A stretch of DNA of 64,000 nt from an uncultured Nitrospiraceae bacterium (GTDB lineage: Bacteria; Nitrospirota; Nitrospiria; Nitrospirales; Nitrospiraceae). Below are positions 24,601 through 45,342 of the stretch, one piece after another. The position numbers and the translations under genes are program-made. The stretch is from assembly GCA_963846575.1 (NCBI GenBank), contig CAWJWJ010000002.1:1824001-1888000 (forward strand), written 5' to 3'. The notes under the pieces were generated by a model. That model did no database searches. It was given only the letters and a program-made list of their open reading frames with translations, and was not told the DNA's origin. Within the stretch, counting starts at the first letter, position 1, and each line of letters begins with the position of its first letter.

Positions 24601-24625
24601 GGGGTCAGGTCTTGCAATCACACAT
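24601..24625 (-). repeat. RAYT-associated 25-bp motif, copy 1 (left inverted repeat)
   Basis: GGGGTCAGGTCTTGCAATCACACAT. Confidence 0.95.
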
Positions 24626-24649
24626 TCTCGGGACGTACACTCGCGTCCT

Positions 24650-25486
24650 ATGGCTCGCCCACTGCGTCTTGAATTTCCCGGCGCGGTCTACCATGTCACA
24701 AGCCGCGGCAATGCCCGGCAGAACATTGTGCATGACGATCGTGACCGGTCGCACTTCCTCTCGTTGCTGGCCCATGTCATCGATCGGTATGGATGGCTCT
24801 GTCATGCCTTTTGCCTGATGGACAACCACTACCACCTCCTCATCGAAACACCGAAACCAAACCTCTCCATCGGCATGCGTCAGCTGAACGGACTCTACAC
24901 GCAACGCTACAATCGCCGTTACGAGCGGGCGGGACACCTGTTCCAGGGACGCTACAAGGCGATTCTGGTGGAAAAAGAATCGCATCTCCTCGAACTCTGC
25001 CGATATGTCGTGCTGAATCCCGTCGGGGCCAGATTGGCGACGCATCCCCGGCTGTGGAACTGGAGTAGCTATCGCGCGACAGCAGGCGAGGCACCGGCTC
25101 CGGAATGGCTGACGACCGACTGGATTCTGAAACAGTTCGGCGTGCGGGCCGGCTCGGCTCGAGACAGATACCGGGCCTTCGTAAGCGAGAAGCACCGCCA
25201 GCGTCAGCCATGGGATCAACTCGTGGGGCAGATTTATCTGGGGACGGCAGACTTCGTGGCAAGACACCAGCCCGATCGGGTGATCCGAGACATTCCCCGC
25301 CGGCAAACACAGGCCCACCGCCCGTCGCTGCAACAGCTGTTCGACGCGCGAGGGAAGCAGCCCCAGCTCGTGCACAAAGCCTATCGACGGTACGGGTATC
25401 GCCTCAACGAGATTGCGGCGCATTTGGGGGTGCATCCGGCCACGATCAGCCGTCGTTTAAAGCAGGCTGAAGAGGAACATGTGTGA
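24650..25486 (+). CDS. REP-associated tyrosine transposase-like (Y1 HUH) protein with C-terminal HTH
   Basis: MARPLRLEFPGAVYHVTSRGN, HUH motif CLMDNHYHLL, GHLFQGRY, catalytic RYVVLNPV, C-terminal LNEIAAHLGVHPATISR HTH. Confidence 0.92.
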   Translation: MARPLRLEFPGAVYHVTSRGNARQNIVHDDRDRSHFLSLLAHVIDRYGWLCHAFCLMDNHYHLLIETPKPNLSIGMRQLNGLYTQRYNRRYERAGHLFQGRYKAILVEKESHLLELCRYVVLNPVGARLATHPRLWNWSSYRATAGEAPAPEWLTTDWILKQFGVRAGSARDRYRAFVSEKHRQRQPWDQLVGQIYLGTADFVARHQPDRVIRDIPRRQTQAHRPSLQQLFDARGKQPQLVHKAYRRYGYRLNEIAAHLGVHPATISRRLKQAEEEHV

Positions 25487-25503
25487 TTGCAAGACCTGAC
25501 CCC
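25479..25503 (+). repeat. RAYT-associated motif, copy 2 (right inverted repeat)
   Basis: ATGTGTGATTGCAAGACCTGACCCC; contains the transposase stop codon. Confidence 0.95.
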
Positions 25504-26232
25504 ACGAAAAATGACCCCACGAAAAAGTTTACCGTCGATCGTCTGCTTTCCAAGCTGGGCATCACCAGCCGCAGTACGGCGCAGGAGTGGATTCGCGCCG
25601 GCCGGGTCCGCGTCAATCAACGTGTCGTGCGCCTTCCCGGCACGTGGGTCTCATGGCCGGGCGACAGCCTCTCGCTCGACGGGCAGCCCGTGCAGGAGGC
25701 CAGCCGACGCTTCATCCTCTTTCACAAACCCAAGGGCCTGGTCACCACGCACGAGGACGAGAAGGGCCGCAGCACCATTTTTGACGCGCTGCCGGAGGAC
25801 ATGCGGTCACTGCATGCCGTCGGGCGGCTGGACCAGGCGACCAGCGGGCTGCTTTTACTGACCAACGACTCGATGCTCTCGAGCCACCTCACAGACCCGG
25901 CGCAACAGTTCCCCCGCCTCTATCTCGTAACTGTGCGCGGCAATGTGACGGAGAGTGCCCGAGAAGCGGCCATCACCGGCCTGCTGGATCAAGGGGAGCG
26001 CCTTCACTGTCAAAACGTGACCATCCAGAAACGCTCCGGACGCGAGTCGCATTTGGAGGTAACGCTGACCGAAGGCAAGAACCGGGAGATCAGGCGACTG
26101 TTCAAGGCGCTTGGACACGAGGTGACGAGGTTGCGGCGCATCCAGTACGGGCCGTTCCTCCTCGGCGACCTGCCACCGGGAGGCTGGCGGGAACTCACAG
26201 TCGAGGAAGCGAGAAACGCACTCCAATCGTGA
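25483..26232 (+). CDS. rRNA pseudouridine synthase (RsuA/RluB family)
   Basis: S4 domain VDRLLSKLGITSR, FHKPKG, VGRLDQATSGLLLLTND, LTEGKNREIRR. Confidence 0.92.
   Translation: MIARPDPTKNDPTKKFTVDRLLSKLGITSRSTAQEWIRAGRVRVNQRVVRLPGTWVSWPGDSLSLDGQPVQEASRRFILFHKPKGLVTTHEDEKGRSTIFDALPEDMRSLHAVGRLDQATSGLLLLTNDSMLSSHLTDPAQQFPRLYLVTVRGNVTESAREAAITGLLDQGERLHCQNVTIQKRSGRESHLEVTLTEGKNREIRRLFKALGHEVTRLRRIQYGPFLLGDLPPGGWRELTVEEARNALQS
25497..25526 (+). repeat. Exact 15-bp tandem duplication
   Basis: TGACCCCACGAAAAA x2 (25497-25511, 25512-25526). Confidence 0.95.
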
Positions 26233-26454
26233 GAAGCGGGCGGCGCACTCCAATCAACTCACCGGCACTATCGGGTGGAAGTGACGTCGTAGAGTCGTGG
26301 GAGGACCAACCCCCTGCCCCGCCCATCTGCTCTCCCAAAACCTCCAGAAGAGCAACCCACACACTGTGCCCGCATCGGAGGCAGGCCGGCGGCGGGACCG
26401 GCGGCCTGCTGCAGGGAACCGATCCACGTCCCGGGTCGGGCCTCACCGGTCCGG

Positions 26455-26868
26455 TTAGTATCCCCGCCCGCTGCTCCCGCCACGCCCCATGCGGTCGAAC
26501 GGCAGCGCTTCGTAACGCTTCTTCAGGTCGGGATGTTCCGCGAGGTACCCCTTCACCGCCGCGTCATCGGCAAAGACTTCCTTGCTGCGCCCCCGATACT
26601 CCTCGACCGTCAGATCGTACTTCGACAACAGGCCGGTCAATTTCTGATTGATATCCTTCCCCATTTCAGCCATCTGCTCGGCCGAAGGCGGACGCCCTTC
26701 TCCATAGCCGCTGCCGCCCTGAAAATAATTCGTCATCATCTCGCCGATTTCGATGCGGGCGTTCACGAATTTCTCCAGCTCGGCCGGTTCGGCAGCCAGC
26801 GCAGGCCCTGCATACAACATCAATCCCAATGAAATGCCGATGATCACCCGTGCAGAATTCATCACCAT
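26455..26868 (-). CDS. Secreted hypothetical protein
   Basis: Signal peptide (PALA-AEP); GAGAGG RBS. Confidence 0.75.
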   Translation of the reverse strand: MVMNSARVIIGISLGLMLYAGPALAAEPAELEKFVNARIEIGEMMTNYFQGGSGYGEGRPPSAEQMAEMGKDINQKLTGLLSKYDLTVEEYRGRSKEVFADDAAVKGYLAEHPDLKKRYEALPFDRMGRGGSSGRGY

Positions 26869-27135
26869 ACGGTCCTCTCAAAATGTAATAGAAGTGGCGG
26901 TCGTCGATCCGTCGTCATCTTACCATCTCAACCGGATGAGGTGCACGGCCCGTCAGGACGCGTGGCCGGATCCGGGCCGGCAACCGGTGAACGGAGCCGG
27001 CCAGACGGGAACCGGGGCCGTCCATTCTTTGTGAAAGACGTGCTAAGCTGGGCCGCCTTTGCCGGGCAACTTAGTCAGCGCGCCCACAGGGCCGGAACGT
27101 CGTTCAGACAGTAACGGGAGAAAGGAGAGTCCAGC

Positions 27136-27831
27136 ATGCCAGGACGCCAGAAGGAGCGGCATCGCACGGAACGCCTCGGCTGGTTACGCGCGGCAGTATT
27201 GGGTGCCAACGACGGGATCATTTCCACCGCCAGCCTGCTGCTCGGTGTTGCGGCGGCGCACGGAACCCGCAGCGCGATCATCATAGCCGGCGCCGCCGGT
27301 CTGGTGGCCGGCGCGATGTCCATGGCCGCCGGCGAATACGTCTCCCTCCGCTCGCAGGCCGATACCGAAGAGGCCGAACTCGAGCTCGAACGGCAGGAAC
27401 TCCAGGACGATGAGGCGGGCGAACACAAAGAATTGACGACGATCTACGTCCGTCGCGGGCTGGACCCGTCACTCGCGAAACAGGTCGCGCATCAACTGAT
27501 GGCGCATGATGCATTAGGTGCGCATGCTCGAGACGAATTGGGAATCTCCGACACCCTCAGCGCACGTCCGGTTCAAGCCGCGTTCGCCTCGGCCGGCGCC
27601 TTTTCCGTCGGAGCGGCCCTGCCGCTGCTGACCGCCACGGTGGTGCCTCAGCCGATGTTCATTCCGTTGGTGTCCGGCATGTCGCTGCTCTTTCTTGCGC
27701 TGCTGGGTGGAGTGGCGGCTTCGGTGGGCGGGGCCAATGTCTTCTCGGGAGCCGCCCGCGTCACCTTCTGGGGCGCCCTGGCCATGGCGGCGACGGCGGG
27801 AGTGGGAGCGCTGTTCGGAACAAGTCTCTGA
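27136..27831 (+). CDS. VIT1/CCC1 family Fe/Mn transporter
   Basis: WLRAAVLGANDGIIS, AGAMSMAAGEYVS. Confidence 0.95.
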   Translation: MPGRQKERHRTERLGWLRAAVLGANDGIISTASLLLGVAAAHGTRSAIIIAGAAGLVAGAMSMAAGEYVSLRSQADTEEAELELERQELQDDEAGEHKELTTIYVRRGLDPSLAKQVAHQLMAHDALGAHARDELGISDTLSARPVQAAFASAGAFSVGAALPLLTATVVPQPMFIPLVSGMSLLFLALLGGVAASVGGANVFSGAARVTFWGALAMAATAGVGALFGTSL

Positions 27832-27896
27832 ACAGGTCGACGACCGGTCTGCATGGATGTGACCGTCCACGGTACTGCCGGACGGGGCGCAGAGCT

Positions 27897-28079
27897 TTAG
27901 CTCCCGGCCTTGGCCTCCGACAACTTGCGGAGGAGCGCCGTCATTTCATCCAGCTTGAGCGTCCCGACAGCCAGGTCGGTTTCCAACCGCTCGATCATAT
28001 CCAAACAAGTCTTCACCGTCTCGACCAGCTGGGCCTGCGTCATCGTCGGGAGCTTGTGTTCGATGTCGTGCCTGTTCAT
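27897..28079 (-). CDS. Small coiled-coil hypothetical protein
   Basis: GGAGG RBS; MNRHDIEHKLPTM... Confidence 0.6.
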   Translation of the reverse strand: MNRHDIEHKLPTMTQAQLVETVKTCLDMIERLETDLAVGTLKLDEMTALLRKLSEAKAGS

Positions 28080-28411
28080 AGGTCGTAGTCCTCCATGGTG
28101 TGGATCTCGCCCAATGTGACTCATCCGGCCGAGGTTTTCAACAGTGGCCTGCGCAGTCATTGAGAGCCAGTGCCGGATGACGCGACGTCGCCCCCGGCCG
28201 GCTTCCTTCATAGGCTCGGAGCGTGCAGCTTCGCCTCGGGGTCTCGCTGGCTTTGACCTCGGTCAAAAACGGGAAGACGCCACATCGAGGACAGCGGAAG
28301 AATGGAAGGCACGAGAGGGATGACGGAGAGCGCGGGAACGCTCGGGCAGTCTCTCACCGCCCACGGGCTTTCCTGAACGCCCTCATTCCTCGAGCAGTAT
28401 CCGGCCCCGCC

Positions 28412-28648
28412 TTACACCCGGCTGTGATCGTGCAGAGAGAACCAGGCATAGGGCGTCAGGTAGTAACAGAGGAGGAACAACGTCAGGCCCAACACCCCGC
28501 CGACCAGGCCCTTGATCACGACCCCGGCGAATGGCAGCAGGAACAACATCAGGTGCATCACATGTGCGAGCGCCTTGTGCTCCTGATAAAAGGCCTGGCG
28601 GATCTCACTCGTGAATGTGCCGGTAACCGAGAGATTGGAAAGACTCAT
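28412..28648 (-). CDS. Small two-TM membrane protein
   Basis: GAGGTG RBS; two hydrophobic helices. Confidence 0.65.
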   Translation of the reverse strand: MSLSNLSVTGTFTSEIRQAFYQEHKALAHVMHLMLFLLPFAGVVIKGLVGGVLGLTLFLLCYYLTPYAWFSLHDHSRV

Positions 28649-28814
28649 CGCCGCACCTCCTCTTCGTCCATGGACCAGGGAGAGGGGATCAGTGCGCAGC
28701 GCCGGCGGGAAGGATCAGGTCAGGTCGTTGGAGCTGCGTCACGACACCACGCTACGCGCAATGGGGCACGGCGTCAAGTGCAGTGGAGCCACTCGTGCGT
28801 ACTCGCCTGCTCGC

Positions 28815-29735
28815 CTAGCGTTCCCGGCCGGGTCGGGGGAGTTGCTGCAGAAAGTCGCCGAGCACGGCGCCAAACTTGTCCGGGTCTTCCGCCATGATGA
28901 AATGTCCCGTGTCGAACTCTACGAGCTGAGCGCCGGGAATTTGCGCCTGGATGCCCTTCGCGATGGTCGGCGTCGCCACCCCGTCTTTGGCGCCCACCAT
29001 GATCAGGGTCGGCGCGGTGATGCCGGTGAGCTGACCATGCACATTAAAACGGGACATCGACGTCAGCGCCTCTCTGATCACCGTGGCGTTCCAGGTGCGA
29101 ATCCGGTCAAGCAACGGCTGGTAGAGCCTGGACGGCGCATCCTGCGGGAAACTTTCCACGATCATCTTCTTGGACACGCGACGATAATCCCGCGGCGCGC
29201 CGATCGTGGGCACGTCCTCGTCGAGAATCATGGGCCCATCGGTGGTTGACACCAGCACCAATGCCCGCACCCGCTCGGGGTGATCGAGCGCGAGGCGTTG
29301 AAGAATCATCCCGCCCATGGATACTCCCACCCAAACCGCCCGGTCGATCTGCAGGGCATCCGCTAGTTTGATCAAGTCCTGTGAAAACTGCTCGATGGTG
29401 AACCCGCCGGGCGGTTTGTCGGAGTCGCCATACCCACGGAGGTCCACGGCGATGCCGCGGAAGTCCGGCGTATAGGCGGCGACATATTTCGGAAAGATGT
29501 TGCTGGTCGTGACGACGCCATGCACGAAGATGACGGGATCGCCGGTGCCTGCCTCCAAGAGGCTCACATGCAGTCCGTCGAGATCGACGACGTGGCGCTG
29601 AAACAACTCACCGGGCGGCATGACATCAGCCAGTTTGGCCGGCCGGGCGGCGGTTCCCTGAGTAGGATAGGAAGAACCGGCACAGCCGGTCACGCCCATC
29701 AAGGCGACCACGAGGATCAACGTCACTGCCCGCAT
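28815..29735 (-). CDS. Alpha/beta hydrolase, probable lipoprotein
   Basis: Lipobox VTGC, FVHG, DLRGYG, GVSMGG, GHF. Confidence 0.9.
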   Translation of the reverse strand: MRAVTLILVVALMGVTGCAGSSYPTQGTAARPAKLADVMPPGELFQRHVVDLDGLHVSLLEAGTGDPVIFVHGVVTTSNIFPKYVAAYTPDFRGIAVDLRGYGDSDKPPGGFTIEQFSQDLIKLADALQIDRAVWVGVSMGGMILQRLALDHPERVRALVLVSTTDGPMILDEDVPTIGAPRDYRRVSKKMIVESFPQDAPSRLYQPLLDRIRTWNATVIREALTSMSRFNVHGQLTGITAPTLIMVGAKDGVATPTIAKGIQAQIPGAQLVEFDTGHFIMAEDPDKFGAVLGDFLQQLPRPGRER

Positions 29736-29910
29736 ACAGCTCCCCTTTCCAAATGTTAGGTGAACGATTCAGCCTAAGGCCTGCGCAGGAGATATTCAAT
29801 CCTATGATGTTCGACAGGGATCGTGATCGGCGAAGTGGGCGTGCGATGATCATCGACCGGCACGGTCCACGATTCGAAATGCTAGGTTTTATCCGGCCAT
29901 AGCTGGTAGG

Positions 29911-30990
29911 ATGCGTCATGCACGTGTTTCTTCGGTGAACTCGAATGAAAGGGAGCCTGTCTTGAACATCACTAAATTGATTGCCGCTTGCATCGTGTTG
30001 TCTCTGGTCGGAATGCCAACCATCTCCCTGGCGAAGGCGCGAGGCGGATCGGGAGGAGGATTCTCCAGCGGGTCGCGTAGTGGAAACTCCGGAAGCAGCA
30101 TGGGCAGCCGCGGCTCACGCACCCATCAGGACAACGGCGCGAAGCCGATCGAACAGTCCACCACGGCCAGGCCGGCCACGGCTCCCCCGCCATCCACCGC
30201 GACCAGCCCGGCTGGTCAATCGAGCCCCGCCGCGCAGCCGTCATGGCTGCAACGCAATCCCCTGCTGGCCGGCATCGCAGGCGGCCTCGCCGGAACCTGG
30301 CTCGGCCATATGATCTTCGGAGCGACCGACAGCAGCGCCAGGACCACCGAGAACGGTGGAGCAGAGGGCGAACAGACAGCCGGGGCATCCGGTCCTAACT
30401 GGACGCTGATCCTGCTCATGCTGATGGGAGCCGGAGGACTGTATTATTACTTCAAGGGTCGCCGCACTCCCGCTCCTGATTTTTCAGGCCTCAGTCGGAG
30501 CACGGCCGCAAGTGGCTCTCTGCTGGCGGATTCCGCCACCGCTCCGAGCCTCCGGACGGCCACGATCGACAGCGAAATCACCAGGTCCGACAAAAGCGCG
30601 TTTCAGCAATCGCTGATCGACATTCAAACAGCCTGGGGCAAACAAGACCTGACCGGACTGCGGCGGCTCGTCACGCCGGAGATGCTGGAGTATTTCAGCA
30701 CCGGCTTGGCCGAACAGGCCAGCCAGGACCTCGTCAATCACGTGGAAGATGTGATCCTTCAGCAGGCGGATGTCCGGGAATCCTGGGTGGAAAATACGAC
30801 GCAATACGCGACGGTGAACCTGACCTGGACCGCCCGCGACTACAGCGTCTCCCTGAGCAAACAACCGGGAGAGCCCGGCTATCTCGTCGAAGGCAACAAA
30901 GAAACGCCGACCGAAACGACGGAAGTCTGGACCTTCATGCGATTCCAGCATGGGAAGTGGTTGCTCTCCGCGATCCAACAGGTCGCATAG
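29911..30990 (+). CDS. Tim44-domain protein (true start possibly downstream)
   Basis: SMGSRGSRT, Gly-rich TM, C-terminal EVWTF..WLLSAIQQ. Confidence 0.88.
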   Translation: MRHARVSSVNSNEREPVLNITKLIAACIVLSLVGMPTISLAKARGGSGGGFSSGSRSGNSGSSMGSRGSRTHQDNGAKPIEQSTTARPATAPPPSTATSPAGQSSPAAQPSWLQRNPLLAGIAGGLAGTWLGHMIFGATDSSARTTENGGAEGEQTAGASGPNWTLILLMLMGAGGLYYYFKGRRTPAPDFSGLSRSTAASGSLLADSATAPSLRTATIDSEITRSDKSAFQQSLIDIQTAWGKQDLTGLRRLVTPEMLEYFSTGLAEQASQDLVNHVEDVILQQADVRESWVENTTQYATVNLTWTARDYSVSLSKQPGEPGYLVEGNKETPTETTEVWTFMRFQHGKWLLSAIQQVA

Positions 30991-31036
30991 GGTTGCGCGC
31001 GTCCGCTGACGACGCGACAAGCGAGCCGTAGGACAT

Positions 31037-31086
31037 GGGGCAGCGGTAGTCTCGATGGTCGAGACGGCCGCTGCCCCGTTTTTTTT
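31037..31086 (+). terminator. Rho-independent terminator
   Basis: GGGGCAGCGG-ta-GTCTCGA-tgg-TCGAGAC-gg-CCGCTGCCCC followed by a T8 tract. Confidence 0.8.
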
Positions 31087-31228
31087 AGTGTCACGCTGAT
31101 CGCCCCGGAGGAACAGCCGTCACCGCACCCGCCGCATAGATCTGGGCGATAGACCGGAGGCTCAAGGGCCGGCCGCCCCCGCAGGGCAGCGGCATGAATG
31201 GCCGGGCAGGAGCGATGAGGCGGCCGGT

Positions 31229-31402
31229 CTAGTCGAGCGGGCTGGCCTCGAAGTGGATGAGGATGTCGTCTTCGATGGTGTAGCTGATCTCCAAAGGATT
31301 GCAGCAGACCTCGCAATCTTCGACGTAGGTCGAATGGACGGAGGGATCCAGGACCATGGAGATCAATTCGCCGCAGGAGGGGCAATTAAAGGAATGTTCC
31401 AC
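31229..31402 (-). CDS. CPXCG-motif cysteine-rich protein
   Basis: CPSCGE..LDPS..YVEDCEVCCNP. Confidence 0.85.
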   Translation of the reverse strand: MEHSFNCPSCGELISMVLDPSVHSTYVEDCEVCCNPLEISYTIEDDILIHFEASPLD

Positions 31403-31742
31403 GACCGATACCGTACCGCAATCCCCCTCACATAACAATGGCGGCCACCCGAGAGCGACCCGCCCGGGAACCCGGCCATCATTCAGGGAATCACTGACGT
31501 AGCTGGTGAAGGCAGGCAGGAATCTGAGTGGTGCCGGTCGCACCAGACCGGTATGGGTTCAGCATAACTTCGACAAGGTCGACGGTCAGCGTCGAGAAGA
31601 CACCCGGCACACTTTCCTCACGCTCACGATGCCGCCGCTCCGCACCATGGCTAGCCGAGTTAGCCTCCGGGCGGAGCGGGGCAAGCGTAACGGGAAACGC
31701 AGGCCTCTTCGGAATGATCCTGCTTCGCGACTGGTGGAGCCC

Positions 31743-32027
31743 TTAGCCCCAGCGCACCTGCAACGGGCTCTGTACCAGTGCCTGCGCAAGCTTCCGGGAA
31801 GCCGACTCCAATTCACGACAGCGCGCCACGAATCGTCCGGACGCCAGGCGGGGAAAGTAGTCCCGGTGGCGCTCATAAAACGACGCCCGCCGCCCCCAAC
31901 GCTCCGCATCTTCGCTCAACAGCCAGGCGGTCAGACCGTTGGGCCGGTCGGGTTCCGTGTCTTCCGTCCGCGTCCCGACGGATTCACTTTCGTCGATCAC
32001 CGATGTGGAATGATGCATGTCTCTCAT
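31743..32027 (-). CDS. Hypothetical protein
   Basis: AAGGAGG RBS before ATG 32027. Confidence 0.6.
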   Translation of the reverse strand: MRDMHHSTSVIDESESVGTRTEDTEPDRPNGLTAWLLSEDAERWGRRASFYERHRDYFPRLASGRFVARCRELESASRKLAQALVQSPLQVRWG

Positions 32028-32276
32028 GGTGTCCTCCTTGTTCTCTCCGCCGTGACCGGCACTCGAACGGGCCGGATCGGCCGGCGCATCATCAGCATCC
32101 TCTGCTGCGACAAGTCCCACTCTAGGACAATGAGATGAGGAAACGATTAGTACAACATGAGAAACACTTCATCTGATGAATCGGCAACACACCGCAGAGC
32201 CCCCGGCGGCAATGCGTCTGCGTCTGGCCGCCCGGTCAGGCCTCTGCCGAGACGCGGCCTCGTGGCCGACACCGGT

Positions 32277-32489: not shown

Positions 32490-32563
32490 GGTTCCCTCCT
32501 TCCGTCAATCTCCCGTCATGTTGCACCCGCACATCAACGAGACGCAAGCATCAGTAGCCGGCG

Positions 32564-32588
32564 ATGTTTGATTGCAAGACCTGACCCC
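32564..32588 (+). repeat. RAYT-associated motif, copy 3 (24/25 match)
   Basis: ATGTTTGATTGCAAGACCTGACCCC. Confidence 0.92.
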
Positions 32589-32663
32589 TATGACGGACCC
32601 TGGTGGGCTCCTAGGGATATCATTAGTGGAAATGCCTGGCATGCCGGAAGTATCATCGGCCGT

Positions 32664-34932: not shown

Positions 34933-35672
34933 GCCGCCTGATCTCCTTTCAGAACGTCTCTCTCCGTTTCGACAACAAAGACATCCTTCACAATCTGAAC
35001 TTCGACGTGGAAGCCGGAGAAACGCTGGTGCTCCTGGGGCGGAGCGGGTCCGGAAAAACCACCGCCTTGAAAATGGTCAATGCCCTGCTCCGACCGACGG
35101 CCGGTGAGGTCTTCGTGGAGGGCAAGCGGACGACGGACTGGGACCTGATCAGGCTCAGGCGCCGGATCGGCTACGTGATCCAGGATGCCGGCCTGTTCCC
35201 GCATTTCACCATAGCGGCCAATGTCGGACTGGTGCCCCGCCTGGAAGGGTGGAAACCGGGCGTGATAGAAGAACGTGTGCAGGGTCTGCTCCAACAAGTC
35301 GGCCTTCCCCCGGATCAGTTCGCCACCCGTTATCCCCGGCAGCTGTCCGGCGGGCAACGTCAGCGGGTCGGCGTCGCACGGGCCTTGGCTGCCGATCCCC
35401 CCATCATGCTGCTGGACGAACCGTTCGGCGCGCTCGATCCGGTGACCCGCGTCGACATGCAGCGCCAGTTCCTCGAATTGCGCCAGGGTCTCGCCAAGAC
35501 GACCCTGTTCGTCACCCACGATGTCCGGGAAGCCCTGTTGCTCGGCACCAGGGTCGGTCTGCTCCACAACGGCCGGTTGGTGTTTCTCGGGACTCCTGCG
35601 GAGTTCCTCGAGGCGCAGGGTGAAGAAGTCCAGGCGTTCCTCACCTGTCTCGAGCCGGCGAGGAAGTCCTGA
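34929..35672 (+). CDS. Quaternary-amine ABC transporter ATP-binding subunit (OpuCA/EgtV-like)
   Basis: GRSGSGKT, LSGGQRQR, LLDEPFGALD; ATGA overlap with egtD. Confidence 0.92.
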   Translation: MSRLISFQNVSLRFDNKDILHNLNFDVEAGETLVLLGRSGSGKTTALKMVNALLRPTAGEVFVEGKRTTDWDLIRLRRRIGYVIQDAGLFPHFTIAANVGLVPRLEGWKPGVIEERVQGLLQQVGLPPDQFATRYPRQLSGGQRQRVGVARALAADPPIMLLDEPFGALDPVTRVDMQRQFLELRQGLAKTTLFVTHDVREALLLGTRVGLLHNGRLVFLGTPAEFLEAQGEEVQAFLTCLEPARKS

Positions 35673-36289
35673 TGACGTCCGGATTGGCGAGTGAAATTTT
35701 TGAACTGAGCATCGAACACCTGTACCTGGTCCTGGTCTCCATCGCCATTGCCGCGGCAATCGCCATCCCCGTCGGCGTGCTGCTCACGCGGCATCAGCCG
35801 TTGCAGGGATGGGTCCTGGGATTTGCGAATGTCATGCAGACCGTGCCGAGCCTGGCGCTCTTCGGATTTCTGATCCCCATTCCGTTCATCGGCGGGATCG
35901 GAAAACACACGGCCATGATCGCCCTCGTGCTCTACGCGCTCCTGCCGATTCTGCGAAATACCCTCACGGGCATTCTGGGGATCGATCGAGGCGTACGCGA
36001 GTCGGCGGTCGCCATGGGCATGACCGAACGGCAGCTGCTGTTGGAGGTGGAACTTCCACTGGCCACCCGCACGATTCTGGCCGGCCTGCGGATCGCCACC
36101 GTGACGACCATCGGCACTGCCACCATCGCCGCCGCGATCGGCGCGGGCGGGCTCGGCGTCTTTATATTCCGGGGCCTGGCTTCCATTGACCCCACGCTGC
36201 TGTTGGCCGGTGCGGTCCCCGCCGCACTGATCGCCTTGCTAGCCGATCGAGGACTTGAATGGCTCGAAAATACATTATCACCGGTCTGA
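35672..36289 (+). CDS. Quaternary-amine ABC transporter permease
   Basis: QTVPSLAL, YALLPILRNT, ESAVAMGM. Confidence 0.92.
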   Translation: MTSGLASEIFELSIEHLYLVLVSIAIAAAIAIPVGVLLTRHQPLQGWVLGFANVMQTVPSLALFGFLIPIPFIGGIGKHTAMIALVLYALLPILRNTLTGILGIDRGVRESAVAMGMTERQLLLEVELPLATRTILAGLRIATVTTIGTATIAAAIGAGGLGVFIFRGLASIDPTLLLAGAVPAALIALLADRGLEWLENTLSPV

Positions 36290-37146
36290 TCATCGGACTC
36301 TGGATCACCTGGGCGGCAGGGTGCGACAGGGAACGCCCGATCGTGGTGGGATCCAAGAACTTTACCGAGCAGGTCATCCTGGGCGAGATCGTCGCTCAAC
36401 ATCTCGAACACCGGCTGACCCGCAAGGTGGATCGGAAGTTGAACCTGGGCGGGACGCTGTTGGTCCACCAGGCGCTCTTGAACGGAGACGTGGACCTCTA
36501 CCCCGAATACACCGGCACCGCGCTGTTGACCATATTGAAAGTGCCGTCCTCCGCCGATCCCCAAGCGGGAATGGCGGTGGTGCGCTCGGAATATCAGGTG
36601 CGTTTCAAAGTCGAGTGGATGGAACCGCTGGGCTTCAACAACGCCTTTGCCATGGTGATCCGCGGAGACGATGCCCGTTCCAAAAAGATCGATACGCTGA
36701 GCGACGCGGCGCGTGCGGCCACGCCCTGGGCCCTGGGCGTGGGGTACGAATTCCAGCAGCGGGCCGACGGGCTGGCCGGCCTCTTGAAGACCTATAACCT
36801 GCCTGTCGAGGGTTCCTCCAAAACGATGGATCTCGGGTTGCTCTATCGGGCGCTCGAACAGAAGCAGGTCACAATGATCGCCGCGAGCGCCACCGACGGC
36901 CCGCTGTCGGTCCTCGATGTGACGGTGCTCAAGGATGACAAGAAATACTTCCCCCCCTACCAGGCCGCACTCGCCGTGCGCGCGCAGACGCTGAAACGGG
37001 AACCTCGATTGCGGCAGGCGCTGAACGAACTCAGCGGAAAATTCTCCGATCAGATGATGCGCAAGCTGAACCAGCAGGTGGACGGCGAACATCGCGCCAT
37101 CCGCGACGTGGCCGAGCAGTTTTTACGGGATAACAAGCTGAATTAA
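36259..37146 (+). CDS. Quaternary-amine ABC transporter substrate-binding protein (OsmF/EgtU-like)
   Basis: GSKNFTEQ, YPEYTGT, DDKKYFPPY. Confidence 0.92.
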   Translation: MARKYIITGLIIGLWITWAAGCDRERPIVVGSKNFTEQVILGEIVAQHLEHRLTRKVDRKLNLGGTLLVHQALLNGDVDLYPEYTGTALLTILKVPSSADPQAGMAVVRSEYQVRFKVEWMEPLGFNNAFAMVIRGDDARSKKIDTLSDAARAATPWALGVGYEFQQRADGLAGLLKTYNLPVEGSSKTMDLGLLYRALEQKQVTMIAASATDGPLSVLDVTVLKDDKKYFPPYQAALAVRAQTLKREPRLRQALNELSGKFSDQMMRKLNQQVDGEHRAIRDVAEQFLRDNKLN

Positions 37147-37189
37147 GCTCGCACCGTTGACGGGTCCGATGGCCGCGCCCGGGTCCCGG

Positions 37190-37300
37190 CTATTCGTCAT
37201 ACTGCTTCGCATTGCCACGGGACTTCTCGACCGGATACTTGGTCTCGTTCTTCTTCAGCTTCGCGCGCACGGCATGGTTCACATCCGGGCCCAGATCGTG
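37190..37300 (-). pseudogene. 3' remnant of a MazG-like pyrophosphohydrolase, paralogous to 40397-40741
   Basis: HDLGPDVNHAVRAKLKKNETKYPVEKSRGNAKQYDE vs HDLGLDVNDAVRAKLKKNEAKYPVEKCRGNAKKYDE. Confidence 0.85.
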
Positions 37301-37464
37301 CAATCCATCCGGCTGACTCCTTCTCTTTGGGATCGTGAAACCGGCGCGGATAAATGCAAGTTGAAGTGGTTCATGGGCAAGAGAGGATGGAAACATTCCG
37401 GGATTGAGGACGTAGCGAAGGTCGGCAGGTTCGTGGGGAGTTTTGACTCGGCGCTCCAGATGCC

Positions 37465-37676
37465 TTATGCGCCGGTCATGAGTTCGGCTTCGAGGGGGTG
37501 GTCTTTCTTGAATCGGCTGACGTTCAGGACGCTAAGCCCAAGACATGCCCCTGTCCGTCCACGCGTTCCATGACCGCCTCGTAAGCCGTGGGCCGCATGA
37601 ACCCGGGCGCATCGCTGAACTGCACTTCCAGAAACGCTCCTTCGGGATCAAACCAGACTTTTACTTTGTCGGCCAT
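37465..37676 (-). pseudogene. DUF2283-like antitoxin, one frameshift
   Basis: MADKVKVWFDPEGAFLEVQFSD...MERVDGQGHVLG/SVLNVSRF...; one base missing near 37535. Confidence 0.7.
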
Positions 37677-37806
37677 ATCGTGTCTCCTGCCTTGAGTTGG
37701 TCAGTCAAATAGGCCGTCACCACAAACCCGTCATGTGGAGGATACTTGACCACGACGCACAGCCATCCCACCAACCAGCGTCTGGGCATAGAACTCATAA
37801 AAGATT
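37661..37806 (-). pseudogene. 3' half of a toxin-like partner gene of the DUF2283 protein, truncated next to motif copy 4
   Basis: IFYEFYAQTLVGG/WLCVVVKY..DGFVVTAYLTD..KAGDTIWPTK; overlaps the antitoxin start; no 5' half. Confidence 0.65.
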
Positions 37807-37813
37807 TCGGATG

Positions 37814-37838
37814 ATGTGAGATTGCAAGACCTGACCCC
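37814..37838 (+). repeat. RAYT-associated motif, copy 4 (24/25 match)
   Basis: ATGTGAGATTGCAAGACCTGACCCC. Confidence 0.92.
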
Positions 37839-37895
37839 CACCACCACGCAAGGGCGAGGGCCGGCGGGACGACGACTGCCACCCGCAGAGCACAC

Positions 37896-39725
37896 TCAGT
37901 GCGTCCGGCCAGCCTTCCTCAGCAGACGCGCCAGGTTCACGCCGCTCGAAATCACCCCGATGTGGCTGAAGGCCTGGGGATAGTTGCCCAGAAACGCCCC
38001 CGTGGAAGGATCGATCTCCTCCGGCAACAGCCCAAGGTGGCCGGCTCTTGCGCAGAGGGAGTCATACAACTCCGTGGCCTCAGCCAACCGGCCCTGCTTG
38101 GCCAGATTATCCACCAGCCAGAAACTGCACAGAAGAAACGCACCCTCATGACCGGCGATTCCGTCAGGCGATTCTTCCGGCAGATAACGGTACAGCAACC
38201 CCTGCCCGGCTCCCAGTCGCTCGGACACCGCGCGGGTCGTGGCCACCATCTTAGGATGGTCCGCGGCCACCACCCGTCGAAGCGGCAGCGTCAGAAGACT
38301 CGCATCCAGGCCCCCGCCTCCCAGATGTTCCGTCAGCGACTGGATTTTCGAATCCCAGGCCTCGACGAGGATCGCCTCCTGGATCTCCCGTGCTGTCCGT
38401 TTCCAGGTCTCCACTGGTCCTGGCAAATTGAAGCGGTCGGCCATCCGGGCCGCACGGTCCACCGCCACCTGGCACATGGCAGCCGAATAGGTAAATGGCC
38501 GTCCACTGGTGCGAACCTCCCAGATGCCCTGGTCCGGCTTGCGCCAGGCCTCCCCGGCGGCGTCGATCAGCTTCACGAGTCGATCCCACCGCTCGATGGA
38601 CGTCCCGCCGTGATGGGCCGCCCATTGATAGGCACAGTCGAGAATTTCGCCGTACACATCGTGCTGTTGCTGCGCCGCCGCCGCATTACCCCAGCGCACG
38701 GGCCTGGACCGACGGTAGCCTTCCAGTTCGCGGTCAAGCCGCTCCATCGAGGGCATTCCCCGGTCGAGGTCATACATGACGCTGGGTTTGCCGTCGCGCT
38801 CCACGGCATCCAGCACCCAGGCGAGAAAACCCGCGGCCTCGTGCGAGAGGCCGATGCGATGGAGCGCATAGACCGAAAACGCCGCATCCCGCACCCACGC
38901 ATACCGATAATCCCAATTGCGCTCCCCCCCGATGAGTTCCGGCAGCGATGACGTCGGCGCCGCGACGATCGCGCCGTTTTCGAAGTGATCCAGGAGTTTG
39001 ATGGTGATGGCGGAGCGGCGAACCAGGGCCTCCTGGGGCCCATCGTACGTCAGACATTCCAGCCATCGCTCCCAGACCGCCACCGTATCCCTGCGGAGCG
39101 CCGCCCCGTCGAAACGGTCCACATGCGCGGACCCTTGACGCCAACAGAGGAGCAGCGAGCACGATTGCCCGGCCGTGATCGTCACCAAGGTGCGCAGCCC
39201 GGTCAGCGGGATGGTGGAGGAGAGGTGCAGGTTCAGACCGGGCTGGGCATGACAGCGGATGCGGATTCCTCCGTCACGCGGCTCCGCCTCAGCTCCTCCA
39301 CGGGGTTCGATATGGATCGTCAGGTCGACACGCCCTTCGACGACCGTGACAGTCCGAAGCAGTTCACGACGCGTCGCCGGAACATCCTGAGAGAGGTCGG
39401 CCCCGGCCACCAACGGACAGAAATCCGTGACGCGCACCAGACCGGTCGAAGTCCGCATCTCGGTCACCAACAGGGCCGTATCCGGCTCATAGAATTGGCG
39501 GGACTCCCGCACCCTGTCAGGCGCAATGGTGAAATGGCCCCCGCGCGTGGCATCGAGCAGACTGCAGAACAAGGGGGGAGAATCGAAACGGGGCAGACAG
39601 AGCCATACCAGACGTCCGTCACGCCCGATGAGCGCCGCGGTCGCGCCGTCGCCCACGAGGCCATGATCTTCAATCGGCAAATAGCCGTCGATCCGGTGAA
39701 AGTCCTTCCACCCCGGTTCCGTCAT
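37896..39725 (-). CDS. Glycoside hydrolase family 15 (glucoamylase/trehalase-like)
   Basis: AAPTSSLPE..GGERNWDYRYAWVRD, PDQGIWEVR, GNYPQAFSH. Confidence 0.93.
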   Translation of the reverse strand: MTEPGWKDFHRIDGYLPIEDHGLVGDGATAALIGRDGRLVWLCLPRFDSPPLFCSLLDATRGGHFTIAPDRVRESRQFYEPDTALLVTEMRTSTGLVRVTDFCPLVAGADLSQDVPATRRELLRTVTVVEGRVDLTIHIEPRGGAEAEPRDGGIRIRCHAQPGLNLHLSSTIPLTGLRTLVTITAGQSCSLLLCWRQGSAHVDRFDGAALRRDTVAVWERWLECLTYDGPQEALVRRSAITIKLLDHFENGAIVAAPTSSLPELIGGERNWDYRYAWVRDAAFSVYALHRIGLSHEAAGFLAWVLDAVERDGKPSVMYDLDRGMPSMERLDRELEGYRRSRPVRWGNAAAAQQQHDVYGEILDCAYQWAAHHGGTSIERWDRLVKLIDAAGEAWRKPDQGIWEVRTSGRPFTYSAAMCQVAVDRAARMADRFNLPGPVETWKRTAREIQEAILVEAWDSKIQSLTEHLGGGGLDASLLTLPLRRVVAADHPKMVATTRAVSERLGAGQGLLYRYLPEESPDGIAGHEGAFLLCSFWLVDNLAKQGRLAEATELYDSLCARAGHLGLLPEEIDPSTGAFLGNYPQAFSHIGVISSGVNLARLLRKAGRTH

Positions 39726-40041
39726 ACCGCCTCCCTTAAGAGATCGATGTCGATAGTCCGGCCGGCCCGGGCCAGAGGCACACAACAGAACACGCCTCTC
39801 GCCATCCTGCGCGCAGGGACGCCCTCCCGGCCCCCCTTCCAACAGCCGTTCACAAGATCACCCCACCGGGACATCCAACAGAGACATCTCACATCCCAGA
39901 TCCGGACGCAGGCCGCAGCGAACCTGATCTTTCCCTGTTGACCGGGAGTCATCCCCTCGCCCTCGCCCCGCACGGGCCGACCCGAGAAACGGGACCTCCT
40001 GTGTCTCTATACGACCGGGCCGCCCATTTCGTCTCAACGGT

Positions 40042-40137
40042 TCAACGGACCTTCTTCCGCCTGCCCTTCAGCAGCACGATGACACCCACGATGCCGATGA
40101 TCAGGGCGAGCCCGCCGATGATGGCCAAGGGTTCCAT
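40042..40137 (-). CDS. Small membrane peptide (31 aa)
   Basis: MEPLAIIGGLALIIGIVGVIVLLKGRRKKVR; single TM with basic tail; purine-rich RBS. Confidence 0.5.
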   Translation of the reverse strand: MEPLAIIGGLALIIGIVGVIVLLKGRRKKVR

Positions 40138-40396
40138 AATCCTTCGTTGTCTCCTGTCCGGCTCTGGTGAGAGGCGATCGCCGCCGTCATCCGGTAACGT
40201 GCGCAAGGGCTCGATGGTGCCTGCTTGCTTGCTCGTCATTACAGACCATGCCGGATCAACCTGGTCGAATGCAAACGCCTCCTGATTGAGAAACCGCGGA
40301 GTTCGCAGCCCGACGCCCTGGAGATAACCAGGCAGCCGATGGCCCGTTCAATTCCAGGAAAGCCCGCCCCGCGATGGCCGCTTCGCATGGATCTGT

Positions 40397-40741
40397 TCAT
40401 TCGTCATACTTTTTGGCATTCCCGCGGCACTTCTCGACCGGATACTTGGCCTCGTTCTTCTTCAGCTTCGCGCGCACGGCGTCGTTCACGTCCAGGCCCA
40501 GGTCGTGGCAGAGGTAGGAGAGGAGGATCACGACATCGGCGATTTCATCCTCCACCCGCTCCCGTGCCGGGCCGTTCAGGAGACTCGCCACCTCGTCGTG
40601 TGTTTTCCATTGGAAGATCTCCAGCAGTTCGCTCGCCTCGACCGTAACGGCGGCGGCCAGCTCCTTGGGCTTGTGAAACTGCTCCCAGTCACGCTTCCGC
40701 CGGAATTCCAATACCGCAGCCATTACGTCGTCGTTCAACAT
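40397..40741 (-). CDS. MazG-like nucleotide pyrophosphohydrolase (DCTPP1/RS21-C6-like)
   Basis: RDWEQFHKPKELA, EASELLEIFQW, EDEIADV, KNEAKYP. Confidence 0.9.
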   Translation of the reverse strand: MLNDDVMAAVLEFRRKRDWEQFHKPKELAAAVTVEASELLEIFQWKTHDEVASLLNGPARERVEDEIADVVILLSYLCHDLGLDVNDAVRAKLKKNEAKYPVEKCRGNAKKYDE

Positions 40742-41120
40742 CTCGGTTCTCTCCTGATGATTCTCCTGATATGGGGGCGGGACCGGTGGTCGCTGCATCG
40801 CATCAGGTACGGGGTCCCCCGCCACCCTAGGATCGTGAATCGGCTCCGGGGAATGCAAGCCGAATCGCCCAGGCCATGACCCACGCCCGACCCGACCCCC
40901 AGTTGAAACAGCCGGCATGTCTGTGGCCATCACCGTACCGGCGATGTGAACGAGCAAAAGCGGTCGATCCGCTCCGCCCTGCTGCCGCGCAGGGCAGATC
41001 CAGGCCCGATAGGGCTGCGGGAGCGATGATTGAATTAGCTTGCGGAGTGGCGTAGAGGTTGATGCAGCCACGACTCTTCACCCGTCTCTTGTCCCGGCGG
41101 GGCTTGCGGGAGGTCCGCTC

Positions 41121-41671
41121 ATGAAGTAGGCCTTGCGTTCTTGTTGGTTCTCCTGTTGGTTCCCAGCTCACCCCTCTCCGCACAGACCCCTTGTGCGGAT
41201 TGTTTCGACGCCGCCGAGGCGGAATCGAGGAAATGCTTCGGCAATGCCATTAGCGCAGATGACAAGAGCGGCTGCCTGGAAACCCGGCAAACGCGGATGA
41301 AGAATTGCAACGAGGATCTCTGCAAAGAGGTCAGGGAGGAGCACACCACGGCAACGGAACCGCAACCGGTGCCGGCCCGGCCCGGCTTCGGGGCCTACGT
41401 CCCGACGGAAGGCGAATGGCTCGCGCTAGTCATGAGGACCGGCCTCCGGCGGGAAGCCACGCCAGACCGGCCCTACTCGCTCGACATCGTGCTGGCCGAT
41501 CCGCAGACCATCGAGATCGTCGTCCATCATGCTCCCACGATGAAGCGGGACCAGGTGAACAAAACCATTGAGGCCGCGCGGGAGGCGATCAGGAGCCAGG
41601 CCAGGAGCCATGGGTGGGACAAGTGGGTGAAGATTCGAGAGAAGGTTGAAGTGTCGCCGGGAAAGAAATGA
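41121..41671 (+). CDS. Secreted Cys-containing hypothetical protein (start region has a probable 1-bp deletion)
   Basis: GGAGG RBS and ATG at 41121; the signal peptide continues in the 41141 frame; six Cys in the N-domain. Confidence 0.65.
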
Positions 41672-41805
41672 GAGCATGTAACGCGACCTAAGGCGGTCGC
41701 AGCCGGGTGAAGAAACAGGCGAGGCCGGTCTCCACGAGAGAGCATGGACAATAGGCGGAGCAGAGTGATGCGAAGGCTTCCTCGGTGCTGGGCGAGAGGG
41801 AATAG

Positions 41806-42375
41806 TCAGAGGCGGGCGACGTCATCGGAAATCGGCTGAGCCGGGCAGGTCACGAGCTGAGGGCGGAAGCGTTGCCGGAGCGAGGCGACCACCGCGCCGT
41901 CCGCAGCCGCAGGCAGGACGCACTCGGCGAAGGAATGGCCCGAGGTGATCGCGAGCCGCCCGCAGACAAGGAGGAGAACGACGGTGGCGATCCAGTTGGG
42001 CCAGGCATCCAGCTCCCAACCATACGGGCTGTAATAAAAGGTGTCGCTCACAGGCCAGAAATACTGGATGGGCCAATCGACCCCGCTCCCCAGCCAGTCA
42101 CACAGGAGATGCAGGTGAAACGCGGCAAGGCCCAGCCACCAGACCCTCGGTCGATCCTTCGCCCGGAAGGCACAGAGTCCGGCAATGAGGAGCGCAGCGG
42201 CAAGGCCATGGGTCAGGACATGGTGCCAGCGGCCATAGGCATCGAGACCGGCGAGCAGCGAGAGGCCGTCGAGGTCCGCAGCCACCCCGGACCAGGCCAC
42301 CAACCGGCGATCGCGCCGCGCCGCCAAGCGGTGGCCCACCACCCAGGACAGCATGAGATGTGTGGGGATATGCAT
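41806..42375 (-). CDS. Membrane-bound metal-dependent hydrolase (YdjM-like)
   Basis: THL, ADLD, HHVLTH, HLLCD, FWP. Confidence 0.85.
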   Translation of the reverse strand: MHIPTHLMLSWVVGHRLAARRDRRLVAWSGVAADLDGLSLLAGLDAYGRWHHVLTHGLAAALLIAGLCAFRAKDRPRVWWLGLAAFHLHLLCDWLGSGVDWPIQYFWPVSDTFYYSPYGWELDAWPNWIATVVLLLVCGRLAITSGHSFAECVLPAAADGAVVASLRQRFRPQLVTCPAQPISDDVARL

Positions 42376-42679
42376 AGGGCCGACGCTCCGGCGAAGACGT
42401 CAGAGAGAAGTATAGCAGCCGTGGGGAAGGGGTGAGCGTCGATGGGTTTCGCAACAATCGGCAGGTGGCCACCTCAATCGGTCTGTTGCAGCCATGCGGC
42501 AACGGAACAGGGCCGGCTGATCGGCGGTGCGATCGGAGACCGACTTCTTCGAGGTGGCAGCGACAGGCAATGTAGCGTCAACCGGTCGACGCGGTTGATG
42601 GGGCACGCGCTGGACGACCGTTCTAGGGCGAGATTCTCCAATGGCGCAGTGACAACGGTGCAGGGCTGCAACCGTTTCT

Positions 42680-42831
42680 TAATGTCGAGACGGCGGGAAG
42701 CAGCCTGACCGAGATCGTCGCAAGCAGGACCGGAAGAGGTCGTGGTTGCGCATGAAGCGCTGAGGCGCCTTCGACCGTTCAGTAGTGTTCCCGGCTGGCT
42801 TCCAATACTCGAGTTCTATCGGCTTCGCCAT
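42680..42831 (-). pseudogene. Decayed 5' end of a second RAYT-like transposase
   Basis: MAKPIELEYWKPAGNTTERSKAPQ aligns ungapped to MARPLRLEFPGAVYHVTSRGNARQ (9/24 identical); starts 17 nt inside motif copy 5. Confidence 0.55.
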
Positions 42832-42848
42832 CGCCTGATTCAACGGTA

Positions 42849-42873
42849 CTGTAGGATTGCAAGACCTGACCCT
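42849..42873 (+). repeat. RAYT-associated motif, copy 5 (21/25 match)
   Basis: CTGTAGGATTGCAAGACCTGACCCT. Confidence 0.9.
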
Positions 42874-42902
42874 AACCTTCCTCTTGACCCTAACCTTCCT
42901 CT
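42867..42902 (+). repeat. Exact 18-bp tandem duplication
   Basis: TGACCCTAACCTTCCTCT x2 (42867-42884, 42885-42902). Confidence 0.95.
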
Positions 42903-42905
42903 TTT

Positions 42906-43450: not shown

Positions 43451-43457
43451 ACCTTGA

Positions 43458-45326: not shown

Positions 45327-45342
45327 TGTCAACGACCTGAAC

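What the first reader, a model, noticed from the sequence alone, without database searches (positions are those of the whole stretch)
24601..42902. RAYT-like HUH transposase followed by a co-oriented series of its end motif, each at a junction of accessory DNA
Seen: the motif (A)TGTnnGATTGCAAGACCTGACCC(C) occurs five times, at 24601 (-), 25479, 32564, 37814 and 42849 (all +). I found it nowhere else in the 64 kb. The + copies are 5-7 kb apart. Copies 3 and 4 bracket the egtB-egtD-ABC operon plus gene remnants, copy 4 abuts a truncated toxin-like gene, and copy 5 abuts the AT-rich defence island. Known: canonical REPs and IS200/IS605 ends are hairpins, whereas this motif has only a 6-bp palindrome (TTGCAA). 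Inference: a HUH-driven, integron-like or one-ended capture/rearrangement system in which the motif is the strand-transfer site delimiting gene modules. The alternative is repeated local hopping and decay of the element.
Basis: partly seen in the sequence, partly recalled or inferred. Interest (0 to 1): 0.9.

Follow-up and report, generated by a model that had tools for sequence, protein, structure and literature searches.

The report
Transposase ends marking a rearrangement hotspot
The repeated motif is the end sequence of a known but untested kind of DNA-nicking transposase gene (a TIRtron); its stray copies sit at deletion and crossover joints in a variable region and carry short duplications that point to where the enzyme cuts, but nothing shows that they capture genes as an integron does.

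Summary
The five copies are real. Copies 1 and 2 are perfect 25-bp outward-facing terminal inverted repeats (TIRs) around a Y1/HUH gene with a C-terminal HTH: a TIRtron/TIRYT (named 2013, never assayed in the papers I found). The genome has one such gene and 13 ends in three co-oriented clusters plus one lone end. Stray ends lie at joints. Relatives show a 4.5-kb block lost at the left end, the same flank joined to three different end interiors, and in this window a sixth, chimeric end fused to a look-alike site in a MazG-like gene. The right end also donates an in-frame start to a pseudouridine synthase in three genomes. Across 421 ends, short tandem duplications start mostly at GACC^TGACCC (a C|T step, as TnpA-REP cuts), fitting nick, extend and re-ligate. 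The DNA between copies is a mosaic of core and accessory genes, no window segment recurs whole elsewhere, and outward arrays are not general in other phyla, so cassette capture is unsupported. This scan noted such duplications and co-oriented arrays before on other DNA. Verdict: a known element driving local shuffling, with a testable cut site.

The parts
24601..24625 (-). Left TIR (copy 1), reads outward toward the FAD-oxidoreductase gene
   Evidence: homology to relatives resumes about 17 nt outside it
24650..25486 (+). TIRYT Y1/HUH transposase gene, 278 aa: H60-Y-H62, Y119-x3-NP, C-terminal HTH
25479..25503 (+). Right TIR (copy 2); holds the TIRYT stop and an overlapping GTG start
25497..25526 (+). 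15-bp tandem duplication starting at GACC^TGACCC
   Evidence: an identical contig from a public run spans it (X1 record 1)
25483..26232 (+). Pseudouridine synthase whose N-terminal extension is replaced in frame by TIR-derived codons (also in G012 and G017)
26229..31950 (.). Mostly syntenic core genes (VIT1, hydrolase, Tim44-like, CPXCG) between copies 2 and 3
32564..32588 (+). Stray end, copy 3; a relative about 91% alike has 800 other bases at its inner edge
   Evidence: X4 record 28
32660..37146 (+). Accessory egtB-like / egtD / ABC-OpuAC operon (start position estimated)
37192..37300 (-). 3' remnant of a MazG-like gene, 89% identical to 40399-40507
37287..37310 (-). Chimeric sixth end: TIR-like GATTG joined to a look-alike site native to the MazG-like gene
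37460..37802 (-). DUF2283-like gene plus 5'-cut DUF4258-like gene (toxin-antitoxin-like pair; both Pfam hits below cut-off)
37814..37838 (+). Stray end, copy 4, 12 nt from the cut gene; G023 has the left end of a gutted TIRYT at the matching site
37896..39842 (-). GH15 glycosidase, accessory; 89-93% identical to G023
40397..41672 (.). MazG-like gene and neighbour: syntenic core genes; several relatives carry the TIRYT gene right after them
42850..42902 (+). Stray end, copy 5, with an 18-bp tandem duplication (42867-42884 / 42885-42902) starting at TGACCC
42903..45332 (-). AT-rich stretch with an hsdM 5' fragment (43258-43434) and an AriA/OLD-like ATPase

Best explanation
A TIRtron: a Y1/HUH nickase with an HTH, between 25-bp non-hairpin TIRs, whose ends act as nick and crossover points in a long-lived variable region. 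Shown by sequence: the element anatomy, ends at joints, and duplications that start at a fixed base. Inferred steps: (1) the enzyme binds the end and nicks the outward-reading strand at AAGACC^TGACCC, so the 3'-OH stays on the end and the tyrosine holds the flank; (2) a host polymerase extends the 3'-OH by about 12-19 nt and the enzyme re-ligates, giving the duplications; (3) less often the 3'-OH joins another co-oriented end or a look-alike host site, which deletes or swaps the outer flank while the end is kept; (4) insertion of whole or gutted elements, re-copying of ends in tandem and loss of interiors leave stray co-oriented ends; (5) horizontally acquired DNA arriving in this hotspot gets joined and trimmed at those ends. 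The result is a shuffled mosaic, not a set of cassettes.
For: Duplications starting within -14..+3 of the end: 10 of 104 genus ends, 27 of 167 ends from other lineages and 18 of 151 metagenome ends, against 2 of 520, 6 of 832 and 12 of 755 random sites. Of 421 pooled ends, 79 have a duplication; 25 can start at -6 (weight 20.8), -1/0 weighs 14.8, no other position exceeds 2.1. TnpA-REP cuts at C|T and a nick-extend-rejoin model was proposed for it (PMC3333891, PMC8266576, passages). G012 and G017 lack window 20.2-24.6 kb next to the left end, directly in G017. One flank is joined to three different end interiors. One interior is joined to several different flanks. The MazG remnant stops at the single best TIR look-alike of 663 positions. 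Re-copied co-oriented ends 20-306 bp apart occur in 11 loci. Remnants and mini-elements. Genomes with an intact gene hold on average 6.0 extra ends against 1.6 without (13 vs 13).
Against: No biochemistry and no reads of an event in progress: the public runs were contigs with small shares. Crossover between 25-bp repeats could be host recombination. At the MazG joint the switch lies about 6 nt inside the predicted nick, which needs trimming of the 3' end. A second start class (-1/0) and scattered starts at -10 to -38 are not explained by one nick. Joints at the inner edges (copies 3 and 4) need a further cut or repair step; the copy-4 joint is not a top look-alike site. Only 1 of 11 stray ends in G000 keeps a detectable gene remnant. 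0 of 25 viral-contig ends show the duplication. Kin are not independent in the genus counts.
Confidence: 0.6

Rival explanations
1. Passive debris: whole and miniature TIRtrons hopped repeatedly into tolerant variable regions and decayed. Host recombination or slippage between the repeats made the joints, and the enzyme's only role is insertion.
For: About 365-bp and 210-bp TIR-bounded mini-elements with one end decayed; TIRYT remnants behind ends in G000, G001, G018 and G023; 42 outward pairs, 34 of them 30-125 bp apart, among close metagenome neighbours.
Against: It does not explain duplications that start at one fixed base, mostly without junction microhomology, nor 8 of 8 co-oriented neighbouring pairs in G000.
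Confidence: 0.2
2. Integron-like or rolling-circle capture: DNA between co-oriented ends is copied out or excised as single-stranded circles carrying one end and inserted at other ends, building cassette arrays.
For: Precise end-to-end loss of about 4 kb in G018 relative to G044; low-GC DNA begins at the outer edge of copy 5; different defence-type genes follow one shared end in different genomes; strand exchange between like sites is shown for TnpA-REP.
Against: The segments hold syntenic core genes. Of 51 inter-end segments, none was found whole in a new gene order behind a new end, apart from the G018 deletion; the three window segments were not found whole. The HflX module lies without an upstream end in G011 and G024. 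Genes are not co-oriented with the ends. Outer flanks are not significantly lower in GC (39 of 64, p=0.06; 15 of 29, p=0.08). Around 31 TIRYT genes in a wider set of lineages, extra ends were 7 outward and 9 inward.
Confidence: 0.12
3. Co-orientation comes from strand-biased insertion of ends at the replication fork (as for IS608), with no role for neighbouring ends.
For: In G000 the 5-copy cluster, the 2-copy cluster and the lone end all read on the G-rich strand; G018's mini-elements share one orientation.
Against: The window cluster reads on the C-rich strand, and several relatives have both orientations within one 20-kb locus.
Confidence: 0.08

Closest known systems
TIRtron / TIRYT (Di Nocera, De Gregorio and Rocco 2013, PMC3733652; passages read)
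   Same: RAYT-like gene between long TIRs with the GGGGWSAS motif (here GGGGTCAG); TIR copies elsewhere as singles, dimers or groups.
   Different: The passages I read say nothing on co-oriented series, end duplications, breakpoints or a cut site; Figure 9 and the supplements were not seen.
TnpA-Y1 subclass 2.1 (Quentin et al. 2018, PMC6006769; abstract, passages and section 31 read)
   Same: HuH, Y-x3-NP, a serine motif after the catalytic Tyr, C-terminal HTH, no REP hairpins.
   Different: Only the proteins were classified; no function of the ends was given. I did not run their subclass profiles.
E. coli TnpA-REP / REP-BIME system (Ton-Hoang et al. 2012, PMC3333891; PMC8266576; passages read)
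   Same: Closest solved fold (4ER8); cleavage at C|T; strand transfer; a proposed nick-extend-rejoin amplification that matches the duplications here.
   Different: It recognises a GTAG-tagged hairpin, whereas these ends do not fold; it lacks the C-terminal HTH (recalled; 165-residue chain); P0001 scores below the REP_Tyr_transpos cut-off (75.2 vs 80).
IS200/IS605 (IS608, ISDra2)
   Same: Y1/HUH fold.
   Different: They have asymmetric hairpin ends on one strand and a Y-x3-Q motif; this element has symmetric non-hairpin TIRs on opposite strands and is single-copy in G000.
Integrons, and IS91/ISCR one-ended transposition (recalled, no call)
   Same: Co-oriented sites between accessory genes; single-strand chemistry.
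   Different: No tyrosine recombinase or Y2 enzyme next to the series, no folded attC, segments of 5-7 kb with core genes in both orientations; the inferred nick leaves the enzyme on the flank, not on the element.

Membership tests
TIRtron/TIRYT (subclass 2.1) | Y1/HUH core with HuH and Y-x3-NP | tested here: met
   PF01797 E=4e-14; H60, H62, N123 and P124 invariant and Y119 nearly so in 29 sequences; top fold match 4ER8
TIRtron/TIRYT (subclass 2.1) | C-terminal helix-turn-helix extension | tested here: met
   HTH_38/30/23 hits at residues 244-275, below curated cut-offs; helices 237-277 in the model
TIRtron/TIRYT (subclass 2.1) | Gene flanked by terminal inverted repeats with GGGGWSAS | tested here: met
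   Perfect 25-bp pair 24601-24625 / 25479-25503 beginning GGGGTCAG; consensus
TIRtron/TIRYT (subclass 2.1) | Clustering with the published subclass 2.1 profile | not testable with these tools
   The authors' profiles are not held
REPtron (RAYT with REPs) | Flanking GTAG-tagged palindromic hairpins | tested here: not met
   None of 5 ends folds better than shuffles, z 0.18 to 1.71
IS200/IS605 | Subterminal hairpins, asymmetric ends, Y-x3-Q | tested here: not met
   Symmetric TIRs, no hairpin, Y-x3-NP
Integron-like cassette array | Inter-site segments are discrete accessory units found in other orders or places with their site | tested here: not met
   Core synteny inside the segments; no window segment found whole elsewhere in the fetched loci
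Integron-like cassette array | Genes co-oriented with the sites | tested here: not met
   Genes on both strands in all three segments
Integron-like cassette array | Circular intermediates or empty-site junctions in reads | tested here: inconclusive
   Only low-depth contigs were available; no such joint among the 15 of 17 joints shown
TnpA-REP-like chemistry | ssDNA nicking at C|T and strand transfer | not testable with these tools
   Inferred from duplication starts; the search patterns themselves fix C|T at that step, so the dinucleotide count is not independent

The most novel reading that the evidence does not exclude
TIRtrons are outward-acting single-strand recombinases: by nicking at GACC^TGACCC they stay attached to the flanking host DNA, copy out or exchange the DNA up to the next co-oriented end, and so build, reorder and purge multi-gene modules (defence, stress, metabolism) and donate new gene starts. 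This would be an HUH-driven analogue of integrons with non-hairpin sites.
Probability: 0.12. Interest if true: 0.85.

Novelty: new member of a known kind. Interest (0 to 1): 0.45.

Why it matters
TIRYTs are a widespread HUH subclass for which I found no assay in eight searches of the held library. The duplications give a base-precise, testable cut site and strand, and look like the genomic trace of the nick-extend-rejoin model proposed for TnpA-REP. The joints suggest the enzyme acts on neighbouring host DNA (deletions, crossovers, a new gene start) rather than mainly copying itself, which bears on why such single-copy transposases are kept. If module excision were shown, it would be a new gene-shuffling system and a compact single-strand recombination tool; as it stands it is a known element with good indirect mechanistic evidence.

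Tried and rejected
Replichore bias: inconsistent. Outward-facing arrays as a class rule: 7 outward, 9 inward in 31 loci; the arrays in G041, G044, G020, G015 and G024 are one orthologous locus. Hidden partner ends within 1 kb of the 11 stray ends: only the one at 37287-37310 passed (p=0.006 before correction). TIRYT remnants behind stray ends: 1 of 11 by nhmmer; copy 5's inner MAKPIELEY resembles the TIRYT start only marginally (top 0.14% of ATG starts, several tries). Ends as promoters: no sigma-70 site at any end and no -10 box peak at the fitting distance. tRNA anchors: none in 10 sources. Low-GC capture at outer edges in general: not significant. Look-alike site at the copy-4 joint: not top-ranked, only TGTGA is shared. 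Public runs X1-X5 hold 6-12% of the words, so no habitat or allele-frequency claim is made. Viral contigs: 40 matches, 0 of 25 usable ends duplicated. Plasmids: 1 record at E<=1e-30. No solved relative by sequence. The drop in identity just outside orthologous ends (0.53 in the first 12 nt against 0.84-0.89 beyond 24 nt, 41 non-independent pairs) is confounded by coding constraint further out and is treated as a hint only.
Full report
Observation. The motif occurs exactly five times in the window, once on the minus strand and four times on the plus strand, against none in 100 shuffles. Copies 1 and 2 are not two members of a series but a perfect 25-bp inverted pair (24601-24625, 25479-25503) that faces outward around one gene. 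The whole genome (G000, 4.2 Mb, 2 contigs) has 13 copies and none in a reversed control: five at C2:1.115-1.127 Mb (all +), five in the window, two at 2.04 Mb (both -) and one alone. Nine of 12 gaps are under 8 kb, and 0 of 200,000 random placements reached eight. Leaving out the left TIR, 8 of 8 neighbouring pairs are co-oriented. None of the five window ends folds better than shuffles.

The element. The gene (24650-25486, 278 aa) has a Y1_Tnp domain, HuH at 60-62, Y119-x3-NP and weak C-terminal HTH hits. Its model (pLDDT 89) matches TnpA-REP 4ER8 best, then ISDra2 and IS608. It is the only copy in G000. This is the TIRYT/TIRtron of Di Nocera et al. 2013 (PMC3733652, passages), placed mostly in subclass 2.1 by Quentin et al. 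2018 (PMC6006769), with the GGGGWSAS end consensus. The closest named homologues (72-76%) are from Nitrospira MAGs. In the genus, 29 of 34 genomes have the motif and 21 of 34 a protein match. Thirteen genomes with a near full-length gene hold on average 6.0 ends beyond the gene's own two, 13 with no match hold 1.6; 8 genomes with only fragments or distant homologues were left out, and kin are not independent.

A footprint at the ends. Copies 2 and 5 are followed by perfect 15- and 18-bp tandem duplications that begin at the T of TGACCC; two more of the 13 genomic ends fit the same start, and four have other repeats. An identical contig from a public run spans the copy-2 duplication, so it is not an assembly error. 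Duplications of at least 8 nt starting within -14..+3 of the end were found at 10 of 104 genus ends, 27 of 167 ends from other lineages and 18 of 151 metagenome ends, against 2 of 520, 6 of 832 and 12 of 755 random sites; inner controls gave 1, 4 and 4; viral contigs gave 0 of 25. In a pooled set of 421 ends, 79 had a duplication within -60..+40; 25 can start at -6 (weight 20.8), starts at -1/0 weigh 14.8, and no other position exceeds 2.1; periods of the -6 class are 12-19. A fixed start, a variable length and mostly no junction microhomology are what a nick at AAGACC^TGACCC, short extension of the 3'-OH and re-ligation of the tyrosine-held strand would give (inference). That step is C|T, the dinucleotide TnpA-REP cuts, and Ton-Hoang et al. 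proposed such a nick-extend-rejoin model for BIME growth (PMC3333891 and PMC8266576, passages). I wrote this model down before seeing that earlier notes of this scan had reported the same duplications on other DNA.

Ends are joints. (a) G012 (99% complete) and G017 (94%) share the insertion before the pseudouridine synthase but lack window 20.2-24.6 kb; in G017 the left end lies about 60 bp from EamA, in G012 1.6 kb of other DNA intervenes. (b) The right end cuts off the N-terminal extension of the pseudouridine synthase and supplies a GTG that overlaps the transposase stop; the frame is open in G000, G012 and G017 although the spacers differ (34, 22, 19 nt). (c) A contig about 91% alike has 800 other bases at the inner edge of copy 3. 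(d) Copy 4 lies 12 nt from a cut DUF4258-like gene; G024 and G018 carry this gene pair with an end about 330 bp further on, G001 has it next to hsdM with no end, and G023 has the left end of a gutted TIRYT at the matching site. (e) A MazG-like remnant at 37192-37300 stops exactly at the best TIR look-alike among 663 positions of the intact gene (10 of 13 letters), and the other side supplies GATTG: a sixth, chimeric end. The switch lies about 6 nt inside the predicted nick. (f) One flank (before an HflX-like gene) is joined to three different end interiors in five genomes, among them the TIRYT left end in G018, which equals an end-to-end loss of about 4 kb, and it has no end in G011 or G024. 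(g) One 170-bp interior plus end is joined to different flanks in G000 (twice), G003, G023 and G047. (h) GC drops at the outer edge of copy 5. DNA of the 1.12-Mb cluster is interleaved with DNA of the window region in several relatives, so both clusters belong to one shuffled zone.

What the segments are. Copy 2 to 3 is mostly syntenic core DNA. Copy 3 to 4 is an accessory egt operon plus remnants; six homologous loci I mapped have no end beside the operon. Copy 4 to 5 mixes an accessory GH15 with two core genes. Of 51 inter-end segments from the fetched loci, those found whole elsewhere were in the same gene order; 2 of 8 from G000 were found whole (both in the 1.12-Mb cluster) and none of the three window segments. 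Genes lie on both strands.

Where stray ends come from. One of 11 stray ends in G000 keeps a 215-bp TIRYT remnant. Relatives have about 365-bp and 210-bp mini-elements, often with one end decayed. Among metagenome ends under 1.5 kb apart, 42 pairs face outward (34 of them 30-125 bp apart), 17 are co-oriented and 7 face inward. Eleven loci show a second co-oriented end 20-306 bp beyond the first, often starting near the inner edge of the TIR; such re-copied ends, later pushed apart, would explain co-orientation and sharp inner edges (inference). Against a general rule, extra ends around 31 TIRYT genes in a wider set of lineages were 7 outward and 9 inward, and a replichore rule fails for the window cluster.

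Verdict. The best reading (0.6) is a TIRtron whose ends are nicked at GACC^TGACCC and serve as points of stutter, deletion and crossover in a variable region. Passive decay with host recombination (0.2), true cassette capture (0.12) and strand-biased insertion (0.08) remain. Eight searches of the held library found TIRYT in two papers only, and nothing on a cut site, end duplications or co-oriented series; the library lacks most subscription papers, and Figure 9 and the supplements of PMC3733652 and PMC6006769 were not read and may list clustered TIRs. PMC5581495 and bioRxiv 2024.07.17.603846 (passages) added background only. Earlier notes of this scan describe similar arrays in other genomes and also found no capture; these are unchecked notes and were not counted as support. 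Features of integrons and IS91/ISCR are recalled, not from a call. The element is a new member of a known kind; the value lies in a precise, cheap biochemical test of an unstudied HUH class.

Noticed in passing
L398, L399, L400, L401 (G014, G015): The same 13 letters (CAATACTGTTAGT) follow the end directly at all 4 of their occurrences in the five genomes searched; two run into contig ends and share further letters. Probably the tip of another element that inserts at the TIR end.
   Followed up: partly
window 25483-25530: The TIR supplies an in-frame GTG start overlapping the transposase stop for a pseudouridine synthase in three genomes, a possible translational coupling of a housekeeping gene to the transposase.
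   Followed up: yes
L061-L063 (G018): An island with at least five TIR-bounded mini-elements of about 330-375 bp in one orientation; the interior is unrelated to the TIRYT gene.
   Followed up: partly
window 37896-39842; L001:10406-12346; L003:12195-14150: A GH15 glycosidase paralogue sits next to an end in each of the three clusters of G000.
   Followed up: no
window 45590-52000: The pyruvate dehydrogenase operon region is 85-96% identical to six relatives, higher than the 70-80% of genes left of the element, which suggests a horizontally shared block.
   Followed up: no
window 43258-43434: 5' fragment of hsdM; in G001 the intact hsdM lies right beside the toxin-antitoxin-like pair whose remnant here sits 5.5 kb away at copy 4.
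   Followed up: partly
positions +1 to +6 outside the ends: The flank is AT-rich with a C/T-A-W-T-T-T tendency over 121 ends in genomes of about 58% GC: either an extended element tip or a target preference.
   Followed up: partly
window 53054-61064: A second defence-like cluster: WYL/WCX regulator, helicase with an RNase H-like domain (weak Mokosh-like hits) and three unannotated ORFs; no end motif nearby.
   Followed up: no
window 10373-11620: A DnaE-like ORF holds only the PHP domain and the start of the NTPase domain (415 aa), so the gene appears split; an intein or split gene was not checked.
   Followed up: no
window 26443-26950: A short conserved stretch that occurs twice, on both sides of the pseudouridine synthase, in several relatives; the upstream copy is replaced by the element in G000.
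   Followed up: partly
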